64,000 nucleotides of DNA, taken from NCBI GenBank assembly GCA_000002445.1, contig CH464491.1, forward strand, positions 4,992,001 through 5,056,000, written 5' to 3'. The DNA comes from Trypanosoma brucei. Its lineage: Eukaryota. Position numbers: made by a program. Shown here piece by piece: positions 22,038 through 35,300 of this stretch (position 1 is the first letter of the stretch; every line of letters begins with the position of its first letter).

Positions 22038-25000
22038 CACTTTTACTGCCTTAAAAAATATCCACAAGACAAGAAAATGAACCAAATTATAAAATTTCTT
22101 ATGAGCACTAATTTTTCATACTCTATTACTGCAATTCTTTGCACCGGTAACCTACTTTTAAAAATTTAGAGCCTTATATGAAAAACTGTTAAAATATATC
22201 AAATGTTTTTTAAAAAATTGAAAAACACTGACGAAATAGCAAAATTTCATAAAATTAACAAATGTGAACGAAAATCCTTATAATTAAATTAAACTCACCA
22301 AATCAGCAGCCATACTCAGAGCCAATTTCTTATTGACGGGAAGACTGGAAGAGAGTCACTCAGATTTGGGAGGTTTGCCCTCTTGGTTTTGGTGTAAAAG
22401 TTATCCAACCACATTTGCAGGGGAAAGAAGTTGGGAGTCCTTCATTCTCTTTTTCACAAAATGTCTGATCCTGGTGGGTAGAGCAGTCAGTTTTCCCATC
22501 TTTCTCTCCCGATCCTTGGCTTGCTTTTCTAGATCTTGTTTCACTTCCTTTTTCAACTCACACGTGTCTCTGACATCGTTAAAAACGCACCTCTGGCAGT
22601 TGAACGGCTTTAGACGTCGGGCGCCAGCGACAGATTGTGCCACTGAGGGTTAATTGCTTATTTTCATAATCTTCTTGTGACAAATATCTCCCTATTTCCT
22701 TAACTTTCCCTTTAAAAGCAAATCTTTCCGCGCAACGAAACTGCTACGCACCAGCTTTAAAAAGAACAGCGTGCAGCGCCTTCGCCTACGTACAAGATTT
22801 TTAAAAAAATTAAGCACCGCTTCACGTGCGGAAGGCGAATAAGCGTTAGTGTCCGCATCAAGAAAGGGCCGCTGCATTACATTAAAAACATGGAAAATTA
22901 CAAAAAAATACAAAAAAAAGAGGAAAATTAAAACCTTTAAAAAACTCAAGAGAAAAAAGGGGAATTTTTGAGCCATCAACAAAAATTTTACAGAATCACA
23001 AACTTTTTCAAACTTTACAAAAACAGCTCATTTTTCGGTGAATTACGTGTTAAAATATATCAGAAGTTTCAAATAGAAAAATTTTTAGCAAAGTTTTAGC
23101 AAGAAAAAGTTGAGGGGGAAAAATTCTTTTAAAACAGCAAGGCCATAAAAGCAGCAGAAACCATGCTGAGGGCGAAGTTTTTATGGACAAGAAAACTGGA
23201 ATCTTTGCATTTTTCTTCTATCCAGCCACAGACAGGTTTGTCCTTTCCTTTGTTTTCCTTTTCACAGTCCTCTTTTTTATTGTGTTTTGTACATCTGTCT
23301 GAGGCAGCTGATGTTGCTCCAGTTTGAGTTTGTGGCAAAGAACCTCCACTTTTTGAGGCTTTTGTTTCATTAAATTTGCACTTTTCAGTTGTGTCTTTTT
23401 CTGTTTCGTTATAACTGCATATCGGGTTCGCAGTACATGTCACGGCATCTATTAGCTTACTGCAAGTGTTGTCCGCCCCTTCTTTCGTCTCACTACACAC
23501 CCCTTTCTCTTTTAGCTGGCCCACAACTTCTGTTAGGTCCGCCGCCTTTTTGGTAGTGTAGTAATTTAGTGCCCGGGCCAATCCCTCTAGGTCACGTAGC
23601 TGTCCTAGCTTGGTCTGTGGTTTTCCTGACACCGCCTCTTCGATATTTATCGCATCCAATTTTCCCCAGAACCTTGCTGTGAACTCGCTTTGCTGTGCGC
23701 CGTAGACACTTGCGATCTTTTCACTTACTGCTGCGTCTTCGCTTGGTTTGTACTGTTCCGCATTGTTTAGTAGGTGTCTCTTGACTGCTTTTTTGAATGC
23801 TGCGTTTGTTTTAAGCCCCTCTAGCTGCTTGCCGTCTATTCCACTCATTACCAATGCTGTCGAAGGCTGGACTTCCTTGATGGCTTCCCATGCCTGCTTG
23901 TAGAGTCCTATCGCTGTGTGCTTGGCTTCTTCGGTGGAAGAACTGAATTTCGTTGCGTCCACATTGACGGGTGTCGAGTCCAAGTTATGAGATTTTGAGA
24001 ACCAGCCTCCAGCGAACGGGACGGTCTGCGCAACTTGTGTGCCTATCATAAGGCCGCCGCTTGCTCCTTTGAACAGGTTGCATTCTGTTCCTCAGGTTAG
24101 GCTGTCATCCACGACACCTTTGCCTGCTGTTAGCTGTGTGAAGCCGTCCGCCGTCAGTTCCGGTAAATCATTTTCCTGTTCGGTAAAGGTTGCGTGTTCG
24201 ACGCTGGGTGCATCGGCGTCTAAAGCGTTTATTGTTTGTTTGACGTTGTTTGCGTTGCCGCCCCCGCTGTTTGTTGATAGGCAGCCTTTACTTCCGCTGC
24301 CGGATGCAGCTGTCGTCACCTTGAAAAATTCGGCTATATGCCCGCGTAAAAACTCGCTGTGGGCTATTGCGGTTATGGCCGTGGTAGTCTTGGCTTCCGT
24401 CTCGGCTGCCTGCTGAGCTTGCAGGTGGCGCAGTGTTTCGGCTATTGCTGCCCACGCCCGCGCCTGTTCCGCATCTTGCTCCGCTTCCGCTGCTACTTCG
24501 GCCTGTGCAGCGTTTACTGCGAGGCTATTGATGTAGTTTATGTTTTGTTTGGCGATGGTTAGTATTCGCCCTGGCATTTTTTCAAGGGTTTTCGAGAAGT
24601 CTGCGAGCGGTTTCCACTTGTCCTTCCCGAGTGCGCCTTGACTGGCTGCCTGCCCTGCAGAAACCGTCATCAACGCACATAATGTCCACGTGGCAAGCAT
24701 TTTTTCAGCGCTCAGTCTGCTTCCGTCTGTATCTTGTCTTTGCTTGTAAGGTGGAAAGAAAAGAGATATGACAAAATGCTTTAAGTTGTTATACGAGAGT
24801 TAATTTCGTGACAGCTTATTTCCACGCAGCTGACCTAATATACGCACCGGTTGAAGATACTGCATCAATCGTGCGCATTTCTGAGGTTTGACCGCTAGAT
24901 TTTGGATCGTAGGTTGGTGTACACCTGTCCCTGTTGCAACCAAGTTTTATGCTTTTATGATGTACTTTTTTTTTGGTGGCTTACTTTTTTGCTTTCGACG

Positions 25001-32300: not shown

Positions 32301-35300
32301 TGCAAGGTTATATGAAACCATCACCTACTTGGTTTGTCATTGCATGTACCTTGGAGAAGTTAAATCTGGTGAGAGACAAACCTTAAGACGAGATTCTGGT
32401 CTTTGTTAGCTTAGTTGTCAGTGTTAAATTGCTTGGTATCGATGACAGTATTTTAAGTACAAATAACGAATTCTTCAAATAGTTTTTGAGGGAATGTTGG
32501 TAGTTTCGGTTTTGGGTAACTTCAATTTATACTACTTTTATATGACAGTGCCTATATTTCCACTTTATACAACCGCATGTTGTAACAATTTATTAACTAC
32601 GTTAATTATCACATGTAAATTGTCACTTTATTTGGTTTTGTTTGTCTTATGTTCAACTTGTGTAAAGTTCAATCTTACCATATAAAACTATGGTCACCAT
32701 GACAATTTAAAGCCTAAATTATGCTTCTGACAATTTCTTACATTCAACATCAACCTATATCGTTTTATATCTATTCTATATATACTTTCCAACCGCGACT
32801 ACATCCCTGAAAATATTAAAAGTACTGCATGTTTTGATGCATATAAAACACTTAACACCTATGTGTTGCAGTGGCTTCTATTTTTTGTTAATTCTAAGGC
32901 TTTAGTTTACTTGTGAAAAAAGTAACGCCTTTGGATATTAAATGTACACTTTTTGGATTTTCTTTGTTAAATCTTCGTTCATCTTTGCTTGACATTGTTT
33001 TAATCATGAAAGTTGGATACTGGAACCGCCTTTATTGTTGCTTTTGTTTTATTATTTTTCTCCCTTAGTCGTGTACAAGCAACAACTTATATATTGATTA
33101 TTTTTTATTGAAAGGTCTTAATATTTTGCAAGCATCACAATAAGGAATTAGAGGTCCATCTACAATACTTTTTTAACTTTATAGAGATCTTCCGTGGTTT
33201 CATATGCGGACTTTATTATTCTGGCCACGTCGGTCTTTACTGAGTGTGCCGTTAGCTGCATCTCTTTTTTCTGACTTCGCATGAGCTGCAGTAGCTGCAG
33301 CTTTTTTCACCATTGCGCTGTGCCGGTTTATGATAACTGCCTCCATATTCTTTCCTACAAAAGCTCCTTCTGCATTTCTACGTTTCGTATTGCTTGAAAT
33401 CTGTCCTTCCTTTTCATTTAAATTTATAACTATATTCCTCTCCTGCCATGCTAATTCGTTCTCACTCCCTTATTCTTATTACACCATTCCATTGCTTAAC
33501 GTGCTTCTATTTTGAGCTTTTAATTGGTTCTAACCACCAAACTTATCATAAAAGTTTTCGATACACACTCACATCCCACTCTTATCATTATTATTAGCAT
33601 CACCATTACTATTGTTATCATCAGTCCGCTCATTATAATATTTGTATATACACACTCACAACACTCTTCTATTATTATTATTACTACTATATCCTTAAGA
33701 AATATGCATCAAATAAATAATATTAACCAAAATCAAAAATGATAAATAGCATTTATTTTCAAAACACTATTACCCCATAATTTGCACACATAAAACACTG
33801 TCACACACATATTGCCAAAAATTTACAAATTTCATCAAAAAGTGTTAAAATATATAAAATATTAGGAGTTTTATCCAAATATCAAATTAAATAAATTATC
33901 TTATAATCGTTATAGTGCTATAAAATTCATAAAGACAACATCTATGAAAGCCAATTTTTTATTAAAAAGGAAACTGCCATTTCGGCTCTTTTCTCTTTCT
34001 TAGTCATATTCACCCTATTTGCCTTTTTTCCAGCCGCAATTCTTTTTATCATCCTTTGTTTTCGTCCTCACAAGCTTGTTGATTAGTGCCACGTTGGGTA
34101 CCCTTTTCTTTTCTTCCCATATTTTCCTTCTCCTTTTCCTGCTTTGTCTGCTTTTTCTGTTTCCTTTTTGCCTTCCTCACTCAATGTGCACTTTTCACCA
34201 TCTTTGCCATCTTTGTTAAAAACACGCCCCTGGAAGTTTAGCGGCACTAGCTTTCGGATGCCAGCGGCAGATGAGGCAGTCGTTCCTTAACTACCAAATG
34301 TGATAATCTCCTGCTTTAAAATAACCCTATTTTTACATTATTTCCTTTTGAAAGCAAATTGTTTTGTGCAACGAAACTGCCACGCGCCAGCGCTTTTTAA
34401 AAAATTTTAAAGCCGTGCTCAGCGCAAAATTCAGAGCTGAAATTCACATAAACGAAAAAAATTTTCAAAATGTGATAGCGAGGTATAGACTAAGAATACA
34501 AAGACGAAGATTCTTGAAGTTTGAAGAAGGTTTAGGGTTTACGTAAAAAAGAGCCGCTGATTCATTAAAAAAGTGGCGAATTAAAAAAAATTAATTAAAA
34601 AATTAATAACCCTAACCCTAACACTTTTTAGCCTATTTTTCTTTCTTCCTTTTTTATTTCATTTTTAATAGAACTTTGAGAATCAATTACAAAATTCCCT
34701 AAAAGTTTTGATTCTTTTTAAAAATTTAAAAAAAAATAAAAAATAAAGAAGATCAAAAAAATAATCCAAAATTTGTGAAAACTCAATAATAAAAAACCTA
34801 ACCCTAAAAGTTCAAAACATTCAAAAATAAAAAAATGAGAAATTTTTTAGCTATCAGAAATTTTTTTTACAGAATCAGACAACCAAAAAAATTCTCGGTC
34901 GAATTTAGGTGTTAAAATATATCAGAAGTTTTCAAGTAGCAAAAATTTCTTTAAAAAATTGAGGGGGGGGGGTGAATTTGTTTTAAAAAAGCAAGGCCAC
35001 AAATGCGGCAGAAACCACGCTGAGGGCGAATTGCTTGTCTAGGAGAATAGAGGAATAACGGCATTTATAAGTTCCTTTATCAGATCCATCACTATTTTCT
35101 CCTTTCCAGCCACAGTGTTTTGTTCCACCCTGATTTGCTGCCTCGCACGCCGTCTGGTTTTGAAAGCTGCTGCACACAGGTTTGGAAGTATTATCCCCGC
35201 CTTTCTTTTCTTCTGTTTTTTCTTCTGAGTCTTTTTTCTTAGCTGGTTCGCCTTCTGCTATCTTAGCTTCCTTTTTCATGGAAGCAAGTTGCCTCGCCAA

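What the first reader, a model, noticed from the sequence alone, without database searches (positions are those of the whole stretch)
22310..34470. Duplicated 3'-flank module (orphan C-terminal remnant plus a conserved roughly 300-bp flank) downstream of two unrelated VSGs
The blocks at about 22310-22880 and 33905-34470 are homologous, with shared long strings listed under the repeat feature and C-terminal domain remnants of the same subtype (KMGKLTALPTRIRHF). Each lies immediately 3' of a different VSG's 16-mer (23129-24700 and 34983-36422). This points to a reusable downstream homology block, a plausible 3' boundary for gene-conversion tracts. It may be a remnant of an older VSG that was overwritten from the 5' side.
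Basis: seen in the sequence. Interest (0 to 1): 0.5.

Follow-up and report, generated by a model that had tools for sequence, protein, structure and literature searches.

The report
Fossil telomere flank plus VSG tail stub
Two stretches behind unrelated trypanosome coat-protein (VSG) genes are old, decaying copies of one recombination scar, a relic chromosome-end flank fused to the tail of an older VSG gene; this is an ordinary by-product of antigen-gene shuffling, not a working element.

Summary
The window is a Trypanosoma brucei VSG array with its genes on the minus strand. One VSG protein is identical to a TREU927 entry.

The two blocks are truly homologous, but less so than claimed. The best local alignment is 22567-22763 against 34201-34403: 69.7% identity over 208 columns, z about 26. 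Shorter collinear blocks also match. The longest shared exact string is 13 nt, and the peptide KMGKLTALPTRIRHF occurs only in block A.

Each block belongs to a larger module:
- a VSG with a perfect 16-mer;
- a T-rich stretch, with degenerate TTAGGG repeats in B;
- conserved non-coding blocks;
- a 5'-truncated, frameshifted VSG C-terminal stub with a GPI signal and its own degenerate 16-mer;
- the next 70-bp repeat.

A profile built from the module finds further copies in T. equiperdum loci. I count six independent instances in about 200 kb.

A, B and a third copy share the same flank-to-stub junction. They therefore descend from one old event, not from separate overwritings. Orthologue comparison places the 3' limits of recent conversion tracts at each VSG's own 16-mer, upstream of the module. 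Synteny does, however, break inside stub B.

Verdict: a dispersed recombination scar of moderate-to-low interest.

The parts
23129..24700 (-). VSG A: A-type VSG pseudogene with one in-frame stop at about 24094
   Evidence: Pfam Trypan_glycop and Trypan_glycop_C hits. Stop position. 95% identical to an expressed TREU927-derived VSG, P0013.
23047..23062 (-). Perfect 16-mer of the VSG A 3'UTR
   Evidence: 0 mismatches.
22986..23046 (-). Post-16-mer T-rich segment, homologous to the same segment of a truly telomeric VSG (L004)
   Evidence: 83.9% over 62 bp to L004 11610-11670. L004 runs into (TTAGGG)n about 130 bp later.
22709..22900 (-). Conserved non-coding flank blocks 4-6, copy A. Includes GCAGCGGC...ACACTAACGCTTATTC and GGTGCGTAGCAGTTTCGTTGC.
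   Evidence: nhmmer profile hit, E 6e-44. Alignments.
22567..22763 (-). The ~200-bp block shared with B (block 7). Its 3' third already lies in the CTD (CVFN...C.L).
   Evidence: 69.7% over 208 columns to 34201-34403. VSG similarity by blastx starts near 22619.
22284..22646 (-). Stub A: 5'-truncated, frameshifted VSG C-terminal domain with GPI signal (..LALSMAADLVSLI*) and stop at 22284-22286
   Evidence: Translations. blastx to VSG CTDs, E down to 2e-6. Weak Pfam PF10659 hit, E 0.018. DNA matches to the 3' ends of other VSGs in the window.
22186..22201 (-). Stub A's own 16-mer (1 mismatch), about 150 bp before the next 70-bp repeats
21817..22040 (-). 70-bp repeats of the next cassette
34983..36422 (-). 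VSG B: intact 479-aa ORF with a CTD. Its N-terminal domain is unrelated to that of VSG A.
   Evidence: 86% orthologue in T. equiperdum, P0002.
34909..34924 (-). Perfect 16-mer of the VSG B 3'UTR
34596..34812 (-). T/A-rich spacer with degenerate G-strand telomere repeats (TTAGGG-like at 34796-34807 and 34610-34621 in VSG sense)
   Evidence: TTAGGG-like repeats are reported 3' of telomere-proximal VSGs (PMC3708902, citing Aline & Stuart 1989).
34345..34583 (-). Conserved non-coding flank blocks 4-6, copy B. Includes the C-strand-like motif AAACCCTAAACC at 34530-34544.
   Evidence: nhmmer E 3e-62. Alignments.
34201..34403 (-). The ~200-bp block shared with A (block 7)
   Evidence: blastx similarity to VSG starts near 34229.
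33910..34260 (-). Stub B: 5'-truncated, frameshifted VSG CTD (RVFNKDGKDGEKCTLSEEGKKE..., ..NCGWKKGK.., SFLFNKKLAFIDVVFMNFIAL*)
   Evidence: 90.7% over 43 bp to the CTD of a full VSG in L003.
34134..34134 (-). Point inside stub B where 90-95% synteny with T. equiperdum (L001) ends
33842..33857 (-). Stub B's own 16-mer (1 mismatch)
33561..33690 (-). 70-bp repeats of the next cassette

Best explanation
The two blocks are paralogous copies of a dispersed, decaying, non-coding module that sits behind a minority of array VSGs in T. brucei-group genomes.

**Anatomy, read in VSG sense**
- a telomere-type VSG 3' flank: a T-rich stretch, degenerate TTAGGG repeats (lost in copy A), and conserved blocks 4-7;
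- fused to a 5'-truncated VSG tail: a C-terminal domain starting within its first cysteine subdomain, a GPI signal, and its own 3'UTR with a degenerate 16-mer;
- the tail joins the 70-bp repeats of the next cassette in the normal way.

**Shown**
- the anatomy above;
- recurrence of the module in other arrays;
- one flank-to-stub junction shared by A, B and L007;
- presence of A and B at orthologous sites in T. equiperdum;
- sharp drops in orthologue identity confined to the upstream VSG CDS and 3'UTR.

**Inferred**
- One ancestral event joined the end of a formerly telomere-proximal VSG to the tail of an older VSG.
- The resulting module spread by segmental duplication of array units.
- The VSGs in front of it were later swapped or patched by gene conversion, bounded upstream by 70-bp repeats or the CDS and downstream by the VSG's own 3' end and 16-mer.
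- The module is a recombination scar with no function of its own. Its CTD stub remains available as ordinary CTD homology for ectopic recombination.
For: **Context.** The window is a VSG array, shown by Pfam hits, 14 16-mers and 70-bp repeats. One VSG protein is identical to TREU927 XP_829782.1.

**Homology.** A against B is 69.7% over 208 columns, z about 26, with collinear minor blocks.

**The shared block is not generic CTD similarity.**
- It has no other copy in the window, although at least 14 other VSG 3' ends are present.
- About 140-170 bp of it lies upstream of the first blastx-detectable VSG similarity.

**Family.** nhmmer profiles built from blocks 4-6 and block 7 hit only post-16-mer positions. 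They found copies that were not in the training set: L007 5282-5691 (E 1e-24 and 4e-11) and L002 503-642 (E 3e-13). Including L001-E2 and L006, this gives six independent instances, each ending in a CTD stub before a 70-bp repeat.

**Shared junction.** A, B and L007 are collinear from block 4 into ...GTGC.TTTTAAC...ATTGA of the CTD.

**Age.** A and B are present at syntenic sites in T. equiperdum at 93-97% identity. A against B is only 58-70%.

**Telomere-type character.**
- The post-16-mer segment of A is 84% identical to that of a VSG that runs into real TTAGGG repeats.
- TAGGG motifs are enriched behind module-bearing 16-mers (mean 2.4 vs 0.64 per 600 bp, Mann-Whitney p 1e-4, samples not fully independent).
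- Perfect 16-mers occur in 5 of 6 module-bearing VSGs against 3 of 21 others (Fisher p 0.0037).
- The literature reports TTAGGG-like repeats 3' of telomere-proximal VSGs (PMC3708902).

**Conversion limits.**
- Flanks are 95-100% identical between orthologues, while VSG CDS patches are 66-86%.
- The last low-identity 100-column windows start at 23113 (A) and 34912 (B).
- Identity returns to 0.97-1.00 directly behind each 16-mer.

**No sign of an RNA element.** There is no Rfam match.
Against: - The sample is small: about 200 kb, with several loci orthologous to one another. Only one true telomere (L004) was available, and it lacks blocks 4-7. The 'telomere-type' label for those blocks therefore rests on their position after TTAGGG-like repeats, not on direct observation at telomeres.
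- Copy A in the window has no TTAGGG-like tract.
- The exact flank/stub junction cannot be placed to the base. The 5' part of block 7 could be an unrecognisably decayed VSG hinge.
- L001-E2, L006 and L002-1 share blocks 4-5 but have different stubs. This requires later recombination, or independent joins to a common flank.
- Stub B coincides with a synteny break, and stub A has a 100-bp patch at 83% identity. The module is therefore not entirely inert.
- I could not read Aline & Stuart 1989 or Marcello & Barry 2007, either of which may already describe this arrangement.
Confidence: 0.55

Rival explanations
1. Telomeric-flank transposition. Blocks 4-7 plus a CTD stub are part of the standard flank behind many telomere-proximal VSGs. 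Each VSG with its flank moved independently from a telomere into the array, or a telomeric end was extended by break-induced replication from an interstitial TTAGGG-like tract. The shared junction would then be inherited from the telomeric flank family, not from array-unit duplication.
For: - Perfect 16-mers are enriched in front of modules.
- TTAGGG-like tracts of variable length precede block 4.
- T. equiperdum L001 has two modules stacked head to tail.
- The upstream VSGs are unrelated.
- TTAGGG-like repeats mark telomere-proximal VSGs (PMC3708902).
Against: - The only real telomere sampled (L004) goes from the 16-mer to TTAGGG in about 130 bp, without blocks 4-7 or a stub.
- The stubs are followed by ordinary 3'UTR-to-70-bp junctions typical of array cassettes.
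- A and B are stable at syntenic sites in two taxa.
Confidence: 0.2
2. At each locus independently, an older resident VSG was overwritten from the 5' side, leaving its C-terminal tail. The retained block serves as a reusable downstream homology at which gene-conversion tracts end.
For: - The stubs are real VSG tails with their own 16-mers.
- Synteny with T. equiperdum ends inside stub B at 34134.
- 3' endpoints of VSG identity usually fall in the CTD (18 of 22 in PMC1934917).
- 3' donation is common (PMC3708902).
Against: - The junction is shared among A, B and L007, and 140-170 bp of non-VSG sequence is conserved 5' of the stub. This argues against independent events.
- The diverged tracts in both upstream VSGs stop at their own 16-mers, not in the module.
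- The incoming VSGs carry complete CTDs and 3'UTRs of their own, so the stub was not used to finish them.
Confidence: 0.15
3. A functional conserved element, for example a transcription or chromatin boundary, a replication or recombination signal, or a non-coding RNA, maintained behind certain VSGs.
For: - Islands of conservation among paralogues, e.g. GTGAATTTCAGCTCTG.ATTTTGCGCTG and GGCGCGTGGCAGTTTCGTTGC.
- Fixed order of the blocks in six instances.
Against: - Paralogue identity is only 57-66% overall, with many indels, and whole blocks are lost in some copies.
- Orthologue identity is 93-97%, the same as neighbouring non-coding DNA at about 95%.
- There is no Rfam match.
- Most VSG cassettes lack the module.
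Confidence: 0.05
4. Chance or generic similarity: AT-rich sequence, or ordinary VSG C-terminal-domain family resemblance.
For: - CTDs are the most conserved part of VSGs.
- Exact shared strings are short, at most 13 nt.
Against: - z is about 26 against dinucleotide shuffles, and seven control regions score at background.
- Most of the shared block lies outside detectable CTD similarity.
- No other VSG 3' end in the window matches it.
Confidence: 0.03

Closest known systems
VSG gene fragments (mostly C-terminal) of the silent archive, from the T. brucei TREU927 genome annotation (Berriman 2005, as summarised in PMC1934917 and PMC1868767)
   Same: Both stubs are 5'-truncated, frameshifted VSG C-terminal domains with a GPI signal and a 3'UTR 16-mer, lying in a subtelomeric array.
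   Different: Here the fragment is part of a larger repeated unit. It is preceded by about 300-700 bp of conserved non-VSG flank, sits directly behind a complete VSG without intervening 70-bp repeats, and shares its 5' junction with other copies.
Conserved sequence organisation, including TTAGGG-like repeats, 3' of telomere-proximal VSG genes (Aline & Stuart 1989, known to me only through its citation in PMC3708902)
   Same: The order 16-mer, T-rich stretch, then degenerate TTAGGG repeats occurs behind VSG B and behind four of the five other independent instances. The post-16-mer segment of A is 84% identical to that of a truly telomeric VSG (L004).
   Different: These copies are chromosome-internal and are followed by a VSG tail, 70-bp repeats and more VSGs, not by a telomere. 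Copy A has lost the TTAGGG-like tract. I could not check whether blocks 4-7 are part of the published organisation.
3' donation, or the 'altered 3' end', in VSG duplicative transposition (PMC3708902; endpoints of identity in PMC1934917)
   Same: Recombination limits cluster in the CTD and 3'UTR. Orthologue comparison here shows tract ends at the 16-mer and a synteny break inside a CTD stub.
   Different: 3' donation describes events in the active expression site, where the old CTD is kept in frame as part of the expressed gene. Here the old tail is separated from the new gene by the new gene's own CTD, its 3'UTR and a flank.
Downstream recombinogenic hotspots in a VSG gene family (Field & Boothroyd 1996, J Mol Evol 42:500; title only, cited in PMC1934917)
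   Same: The general idea that sequences just downstream of VSG coding regions are sites of recombination.
   Different: I could not read this paper. Whether its hotspots correspond to these blocks is unknown.
Interstitial telomeric sequences as scars of chromosome-end repair or fusion in other eukaryotes (general knowledge)
   Same: Short degenerate telomere repeats are embedded internally next to a breakpoint-like junction.
   Different: Here the relic is part of a repeated module tied to an antigen-gene cassette. A C-strand-like motif follows the G-strand-like repeats within 80-140 bp, which is unexplained.

Membership tests
VSG C-terminal gene fragment (pseudogene stub) | Sequence similarity to VSG C-terminal domains | tested here: met
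   blastx of A, B and their orthologues to VSG proteins gives E 2e-6 to 1e-15, aligned to residues about 390-520 of roughly 500-aa VSGs. Pfam PF10659 is weak for A (E 0.018, below the cut-off).
VSG C-terminal gene fragment (pseudogene stub) | GPI-anchor signal tail ending in a stop, followed by a 3'UTR with the conserved 16-mer | tested here: met
   ..LALSMAADLVSLI* ends at 22284 and ..LAFIDVVFMNFIAL* ends at 33910. The 16-mers at 22186 and 33842 have one mismatch each.
VSG C-terminal gene fragment (pseudogene stub) | Absence of an N-terminal domain upstream in the same unit | tested here: met
   No VSG similarity 5' of about 22619 or 34229. The upstream sequence has stops in all frames.
Telomere-proximal VSG 3' flank (TTAGGG-like repeats 3' of the VSG) | Degenerate TTAGGG repeats shortly after the 16-mer | tested here: inconclusive
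   Met for B (34796-34807 and 34610-34621) and for L001-E1/E2, L002-1, L006 and L007. Not met for copy A in the window or its L002 orthologue (0 hits).
Telomere-proximal VSG 3' flank (TTAGGG-like repeats 3' of the VSG) | Homology of the post-16-mer segment to that of a VSG adjoining a real telomere | tested here: inconclusive
   A is 83.9% identical over 62 bp to L004. B was not detected. Only one true telomere was available.
Telomere-proximal VSG 3' flank (TTAGGG-like repeats 3' of the VSG) | Adjacency to a (TTAGGG)n telomere tract | tested here: not met
   Both copies are internal and are followed by a stub, 70-bp repeats and further VSGs.
70-bp repeat (upstream VSG recombination element) | Match to the 70-bp repeat core | tested here: not met
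   The core matches lie at 21818-21946 and 33561-33667, outside the blocks.
3' boundary element of VSG gene-conversion tracts | Conversion tracts end within the element | tested here: inconclusive
   Proxy test only. In orthologue identity profiles, tract ends fall at the upstream 16-mers, not in the module. However, synteny breaks inside stub B at 34134. Switched clones cannot be tested with these tools.
Known RNA family (Rfam) | Covariance-model match at the gathering score | tested here: not met
   0 matches in 21500-36600 on either strand.

The most novel reading that the evidence does not exclude
The modules are fossil chromosome ends. Each would mark a once telomere-proximal (probably expressed or expressible) VSG that became internal when its short telomere tract primed repair or break-induced replication on an interstitial TTAGGG-like tract of an existing module. 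On this reading VSG arrays grow outward by repeated telomere capture. The module (TTAGGG-like tract, blocks 4-7, CTD stub) would then be the reusable landing pad and a datable marker of telomere-to-archive transfer.
Probability: 0.2. Interest if true: 0.6.

Novelty: new member of a known kind. Interest (0 to 1): 0.33.

Why it matters
How the silent VSG archive is built and renewed, and whether telomeric VSGs feed back into the arrays, is still largely inferred. A recurrent module with three recognisable features gives a sequence marker that can be counted and dated across the long-read assemblies now available. Those features are a relic VSG-telomere junction, conserved flank blocks and a VSG tail stub.

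The orthologue comparison also gives a concrete negative result. For both cassettes, recent conversion patches stop at the VSG's own 16-mer, not in the downstream block. As it stands, though, the finding is an example of the well-known debris of VSG recombination.

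Tried and rejected
- **Protein search with the stub A translation.** No candidates were found, so the stubs could not be traced through protein databases.
- **Exact look-ups of window VSGs and of TREU927 hits P0032 and P0039.** None is on record, so no TREU927 DNA outside the window was available.
- **L003 (T. equiperdum OVI scaffold).** It appears to show a tandem pair of VSG-A-plus-module units. The join (9950-9959) and a second site (1575-1584) are runs of N. I treated the tandem arrangement as a possible scaffolding artefact and used L003 only as extra sequence variants.
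- **E2 stub of L001.** Its last 210 bp are 91% identical to the CTD end of window VSG 29594-30973. I considered a simple deletion by unequal CTD crossover. Identity drops to 72% just past the stop and synteny is not regained, so I did not adopt that model.
- **Inverted-repeat search of the flanks.** It returned only low-complexity A/T arms plus one 10-nt GGGTTAGGGT/ACACTAACCC pair. The 'inverted telomere dyad' idea rests on the block 4 motif alone and is left unexplained.
- **blastn of the L004 telomere tract against the modules.** It found no significant match to the 29-bp-type repeats. The resemblance of L003 'GGTTAGGGATGGTTATTCGGGTTCCGG' to them is by eye only.
- **Perfect 16-mer at 56295-56310.** This VSG is followed by a degenerate 70-bp repeat, not a module.
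- **Literature.** Aline & Stuart 1989 and Marcello & Barry 2007 are not held. Searches for interstitial telomere repeats in VSG arrays found nothing specific.

Full report
**Context**

The window is a subtelomeric VSG array of a Trypanosoma brucei-group genome, with all genes on the minus strand.
- ORFs hit Pfam Trypan_glycop and Trypan_glycop_C.
- The reverse complement of the VSG 3'UTR 16-mer occurs 14 times, against 1.3 expected.
- 70-bp repeat cores delimit about 15 cassettes.
- One intact VSG (43069-44562) is identical in sequence to T. b. brucei TREU927 XP_829782.1. The window is therefore most likely from TREU927.

**Checking the observation**

The homology is real.
- blastn of each region against the whole window finds 22567-22763 vs 34201-34403 at 69.7% identity over 208 columns, E 1.5e-15. 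No other copy of this block is found in the window.
- A Smith-Waterman score of 96 compares with 23.4 +/- 2.8 for 300 dinucleotide-preserving shuffles. The 570 bp downstream of seven other 16-mers score 21-30.
- Two smaller collinear matches flank it: 22860-22919 vs 34545-34602 (78%), and the 3'UTRs of the upstream VSGs (87.7% over 57 bp).

- The longest exact shared strings are 10-13 nt.
- KMGKLTALPTRIRHF occurs only in block A, as an out-of-frame reading of the C-terminal domain. Its nearest relative is in an unrelated VSG at 2444, not in B.
- The two upstream VSGs are indeed unrelated in their N-terminal domains.

**Anatomy**

Read in VSG sense, both loci have the same order of parts:
1. 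a full-length VSG. A is a pseudogene with one in-frame stop; B is an intact 479-aa ORF;
2. a perfect 16-mer (23047-23062; 34909-34924);
3. a T-rich stretch;
4. in B only, degenerate TTAGGG repeats (34796-34807 and 34610-34621);
5. conserved non-coding blocks that I numbered 4-6 (A 22900-22709; B 34583-34345);
6. the ~200-bp shared block (block 7);
7. a frameshifted VSG C-terminal domain that ends in a GPI-signal tail and a stop (22284; 33910);
8. the stub's own 16-mer with one mismatch (22186; 33842);
9. about 150 bp later, the 70-bp repeats of the next cassette.

blastx against 59 VSG proteins detects VSG similarity only from about 22619 (A) and 34229 (B) onward. It aligns to residues about 390-520 of roughly 500-aa VSGs. 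So about 140-170 bp of the shared block, and all of blocks 4-6, are not recognisably VSG sequence. No Rfam family matches the region.

**Related loci**

Protein searches with the two upstream VSGs returned T. brucei-group VSGs. Their encoding contigs gave eight loci, about 137 kb in total.
- T. equiperdum L001 is syntenic with window 45999-34134, and L002 with window 26200-22050, at 90-94%. Both modules therefore predate the split of these taxa.
- A multiple alignment of eight instances shows the same block order.
- nhmmer profiles built from blocks 4-6 and block 7 hit only positions behind 16-mers. They recovered copies that were not used for training: L007 5282-5691 (E 1e-24 and 4e-11) and L002 503-642 (E 3e-13).
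- Reading these loci shows the same arrangement each time: VSG, 16-mer, TTAGGG-like repeats, block 4 (..GCAGCGGC..ACCCTAACCCTTATTC..), block 5 (GTGAATTTCAGCTCTGCATTTTGCG), then a CTD stub, a degenerate 3'UTR and a 70-bp repeat.
- I count six independent instances in about 200 kb: A, B, L001-E2, L002-1, L006 and L007. This is roughly one cassette in six or seven. It is a rough figure, because several loci are orthologous to parts of the window.

**One junction or several**

A, B and L007 align collinearly from block 4 through block 7 into the CTD (..GTGC.TTTTAAC...AAGTG..ATTGA). Overall identity is 57-66%, with well-conserved islands. They therefore share one flank-to-stub junction and descend from a single joining event.

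L001-E2, L006 and L002-1 share blocks 4-5 but continue into different stubs. L002-1 keeps a whole CTD. Either later recombination within CTD sequence replaced the stubs, or the common flank was joined to VSG tails more than once.

**Why 'telomere-type'**

- The one real chromosome end in the sample (L004) runs from the 16-mer through a homologous T-rich segment into (TTAGGG)n and 29-bp-type repeats within about 130 bp. The post-16-mer segment of A is 84% identical to it.
- TAGGG motifs are enriched behind module-bearing 16-mers: 2.4 vs 0.64 per 600 bp, p 1e-4, with samples partly non-independent.
- Perfect 16-mers precede 5 of 6 independent modules, against 3 of 21 other array VSGs (p 0.0037).
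- Hall et al. (PMC3708902) use TTAGGG-like repeats, citing Aline & Stuart 1989, as the mark of telomere-proximal VSGs.
- Against this label, L004 has no blocks 4-7, and copy A has no TTAGGG-like tract.

**Where recent recombination limits lie**

Segment-wise identity between the window and the T. equiperdum orthologues is as follows:

| Segment | Unit A | Unit B |
|---|---|---|
| Upstream non-coding DNA | 95.4% | 95.0% |
| VSG CDS | 85.7% | 89.2% |
| 3'UTR up to the 16-mer | 74.6% | 81.1% |
| Flank behind the 16-mer | 97.2% | 95.8% |
| 200-bp block | 93.4% | 97.5% |

- The 100-column profiles are mosaic inside the VSGs, with patches at 66-86% next to patches at 97-100%. Identity returns to 0.97-1.00 directly behind each 16-mer.
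- The conversion patches that accumulated since the taxa split therefore end at the VSG's own 3' end, not in the module.
- There are two exceptions. Stub A has a 100-bp window (22614-22515) at 83%, with clustered differences. Synteny with L001 ends inside stub B at 34134. After that point T. equiperdum carries a different CTD end, a perfect 16-mer and a second stacked module.
- The stubs do recombine, as CTD sequence generally does: 18 of 22 identity endpoints fall in the CTD in PMC1934917.

**Interpretation**

Most likely (about 0.55), the blocks are copies of an old recombination scar. It consists of a relic VSG-telomere junction plus flank, fused once to the tail of an older VSG. It was then carried along as array units duplicated, while the VSGs in front were replaced or patched by gene conversion.

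The main rival (about 0.2) is that the flank-plus-stub is a standard telomere-proximal structure, and that each VSG arrived with it independently, or that arrays grow by telomere capture on such tracts.

The shared junction and the identity profiles contradict it, although the synteny break in stub B partly favours it (about 0.15). A functional element (0.05) or chance similarity (0.03) is unlikely.

**Novelty**

- C-terminal VSG fragments are a known class of the archive (PMC1934917, PMC1868767).
- TTAGGG-like repeats 3' of telomeric VSGs are known (PMC3708902).
- The composite, repeated module inside arrays was not described in any paper I could search. I could not read the two most relevant older papers.
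- I therefore file it as a new member of a known kind, with moderate-to-low interest.

Noticed in passing
window 34983-36422 (VSG B); P0005; L001 10001-11266: Residues 13-230 of VSG B are 100% identical to EATRO1125 'VSG 1125.4312', after which the two are unrelated. Against the T. equiperdum orthologue, the N-terminal half is 72-86% identical and the C-terminal half 98-100%. This is a clear mosaic (segmental conversion) pattern with a breakpoint near codon 230-270.
   Followed up: partly
window 23047-24700 vs L002: VSG A differs from its T. equiperdum orthologue in patches: 24500-24000 at 72-86%, and 23400-23050 at 66-85%. The flanks are 96-100% identical. The 3' patch ends at the 16-mer.
   Followed up: partly
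window 25310-25321; L002 8728; L003 6679: A perfect CCCTAACCCTAA (C-strand telomere repeat in VSG sense) lies about 600 bp upstream of the VSG A start codon. It is conserved at the orthologous and paralogous loci. Its origin is unknown.
   Followed up: no
block 4 of the module: window 22820-22845 and 34530-34544; L007 5318-5335; L001 12759-12775: Block 4 contains a degenerate C-strand telomere motif (consensus ACCCTAACCCTTATTC; perfect CCCTAACCC in L007). It lies 80-140 bp after the G-strand TTAGGG-like repeats, forming a short inverted telomere-like dyad. It may be a relic of an end-to-end join. Unexplained.
   Followed up: partly
all 16-mers in the window and L001-L008: Perfect 16-mers are concentrated on VSGs followed by the module: 5 of 6, against 3 of 21 other array VSGs (p 0.0037). 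Ordinary array VSGs and the stubs carry 1-2 mismatches or more.
   Followed up: yes
window 37314-37952 (-): A 212-aa non-VSG ORF with no Pfam match lies between the 70-bp repeats and VSG B. It is conserved in T. equiperdum, with patches at 75-87%.
   Followed up: partly
window 14875-16173 (-): A 432-aa ORF with C2H2 zinc-finger Pfam hits (PF13894, E 1.4e-8) lies inside the unusually long cassette 10838-18391, which holds two VSG genes. It may be a retroelement (ingi-like) fragment.
   Followed up: no
L001 11327-13700: T. equiperdum has two modules stacked head to tail behind the VSG B orthologue. The order is 16-mer, flank, stub with a nearly intact CTD, a second perfect 16-mer (12373), TTAGGG-like repeats (12530-12620), blocks 4-5, a second stub, then a 70-bp repeat.
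   Followed up: partly
L003 1575-1584 and 9950-9959: Runs of N in the T. equiperdum OVI scaffold coincide with apparent duplications: two 16-mers 160 bp apart, and a tandem VSG-A-plus-module pair. These are likely scaffolding artefacts.
   Followed up: partly
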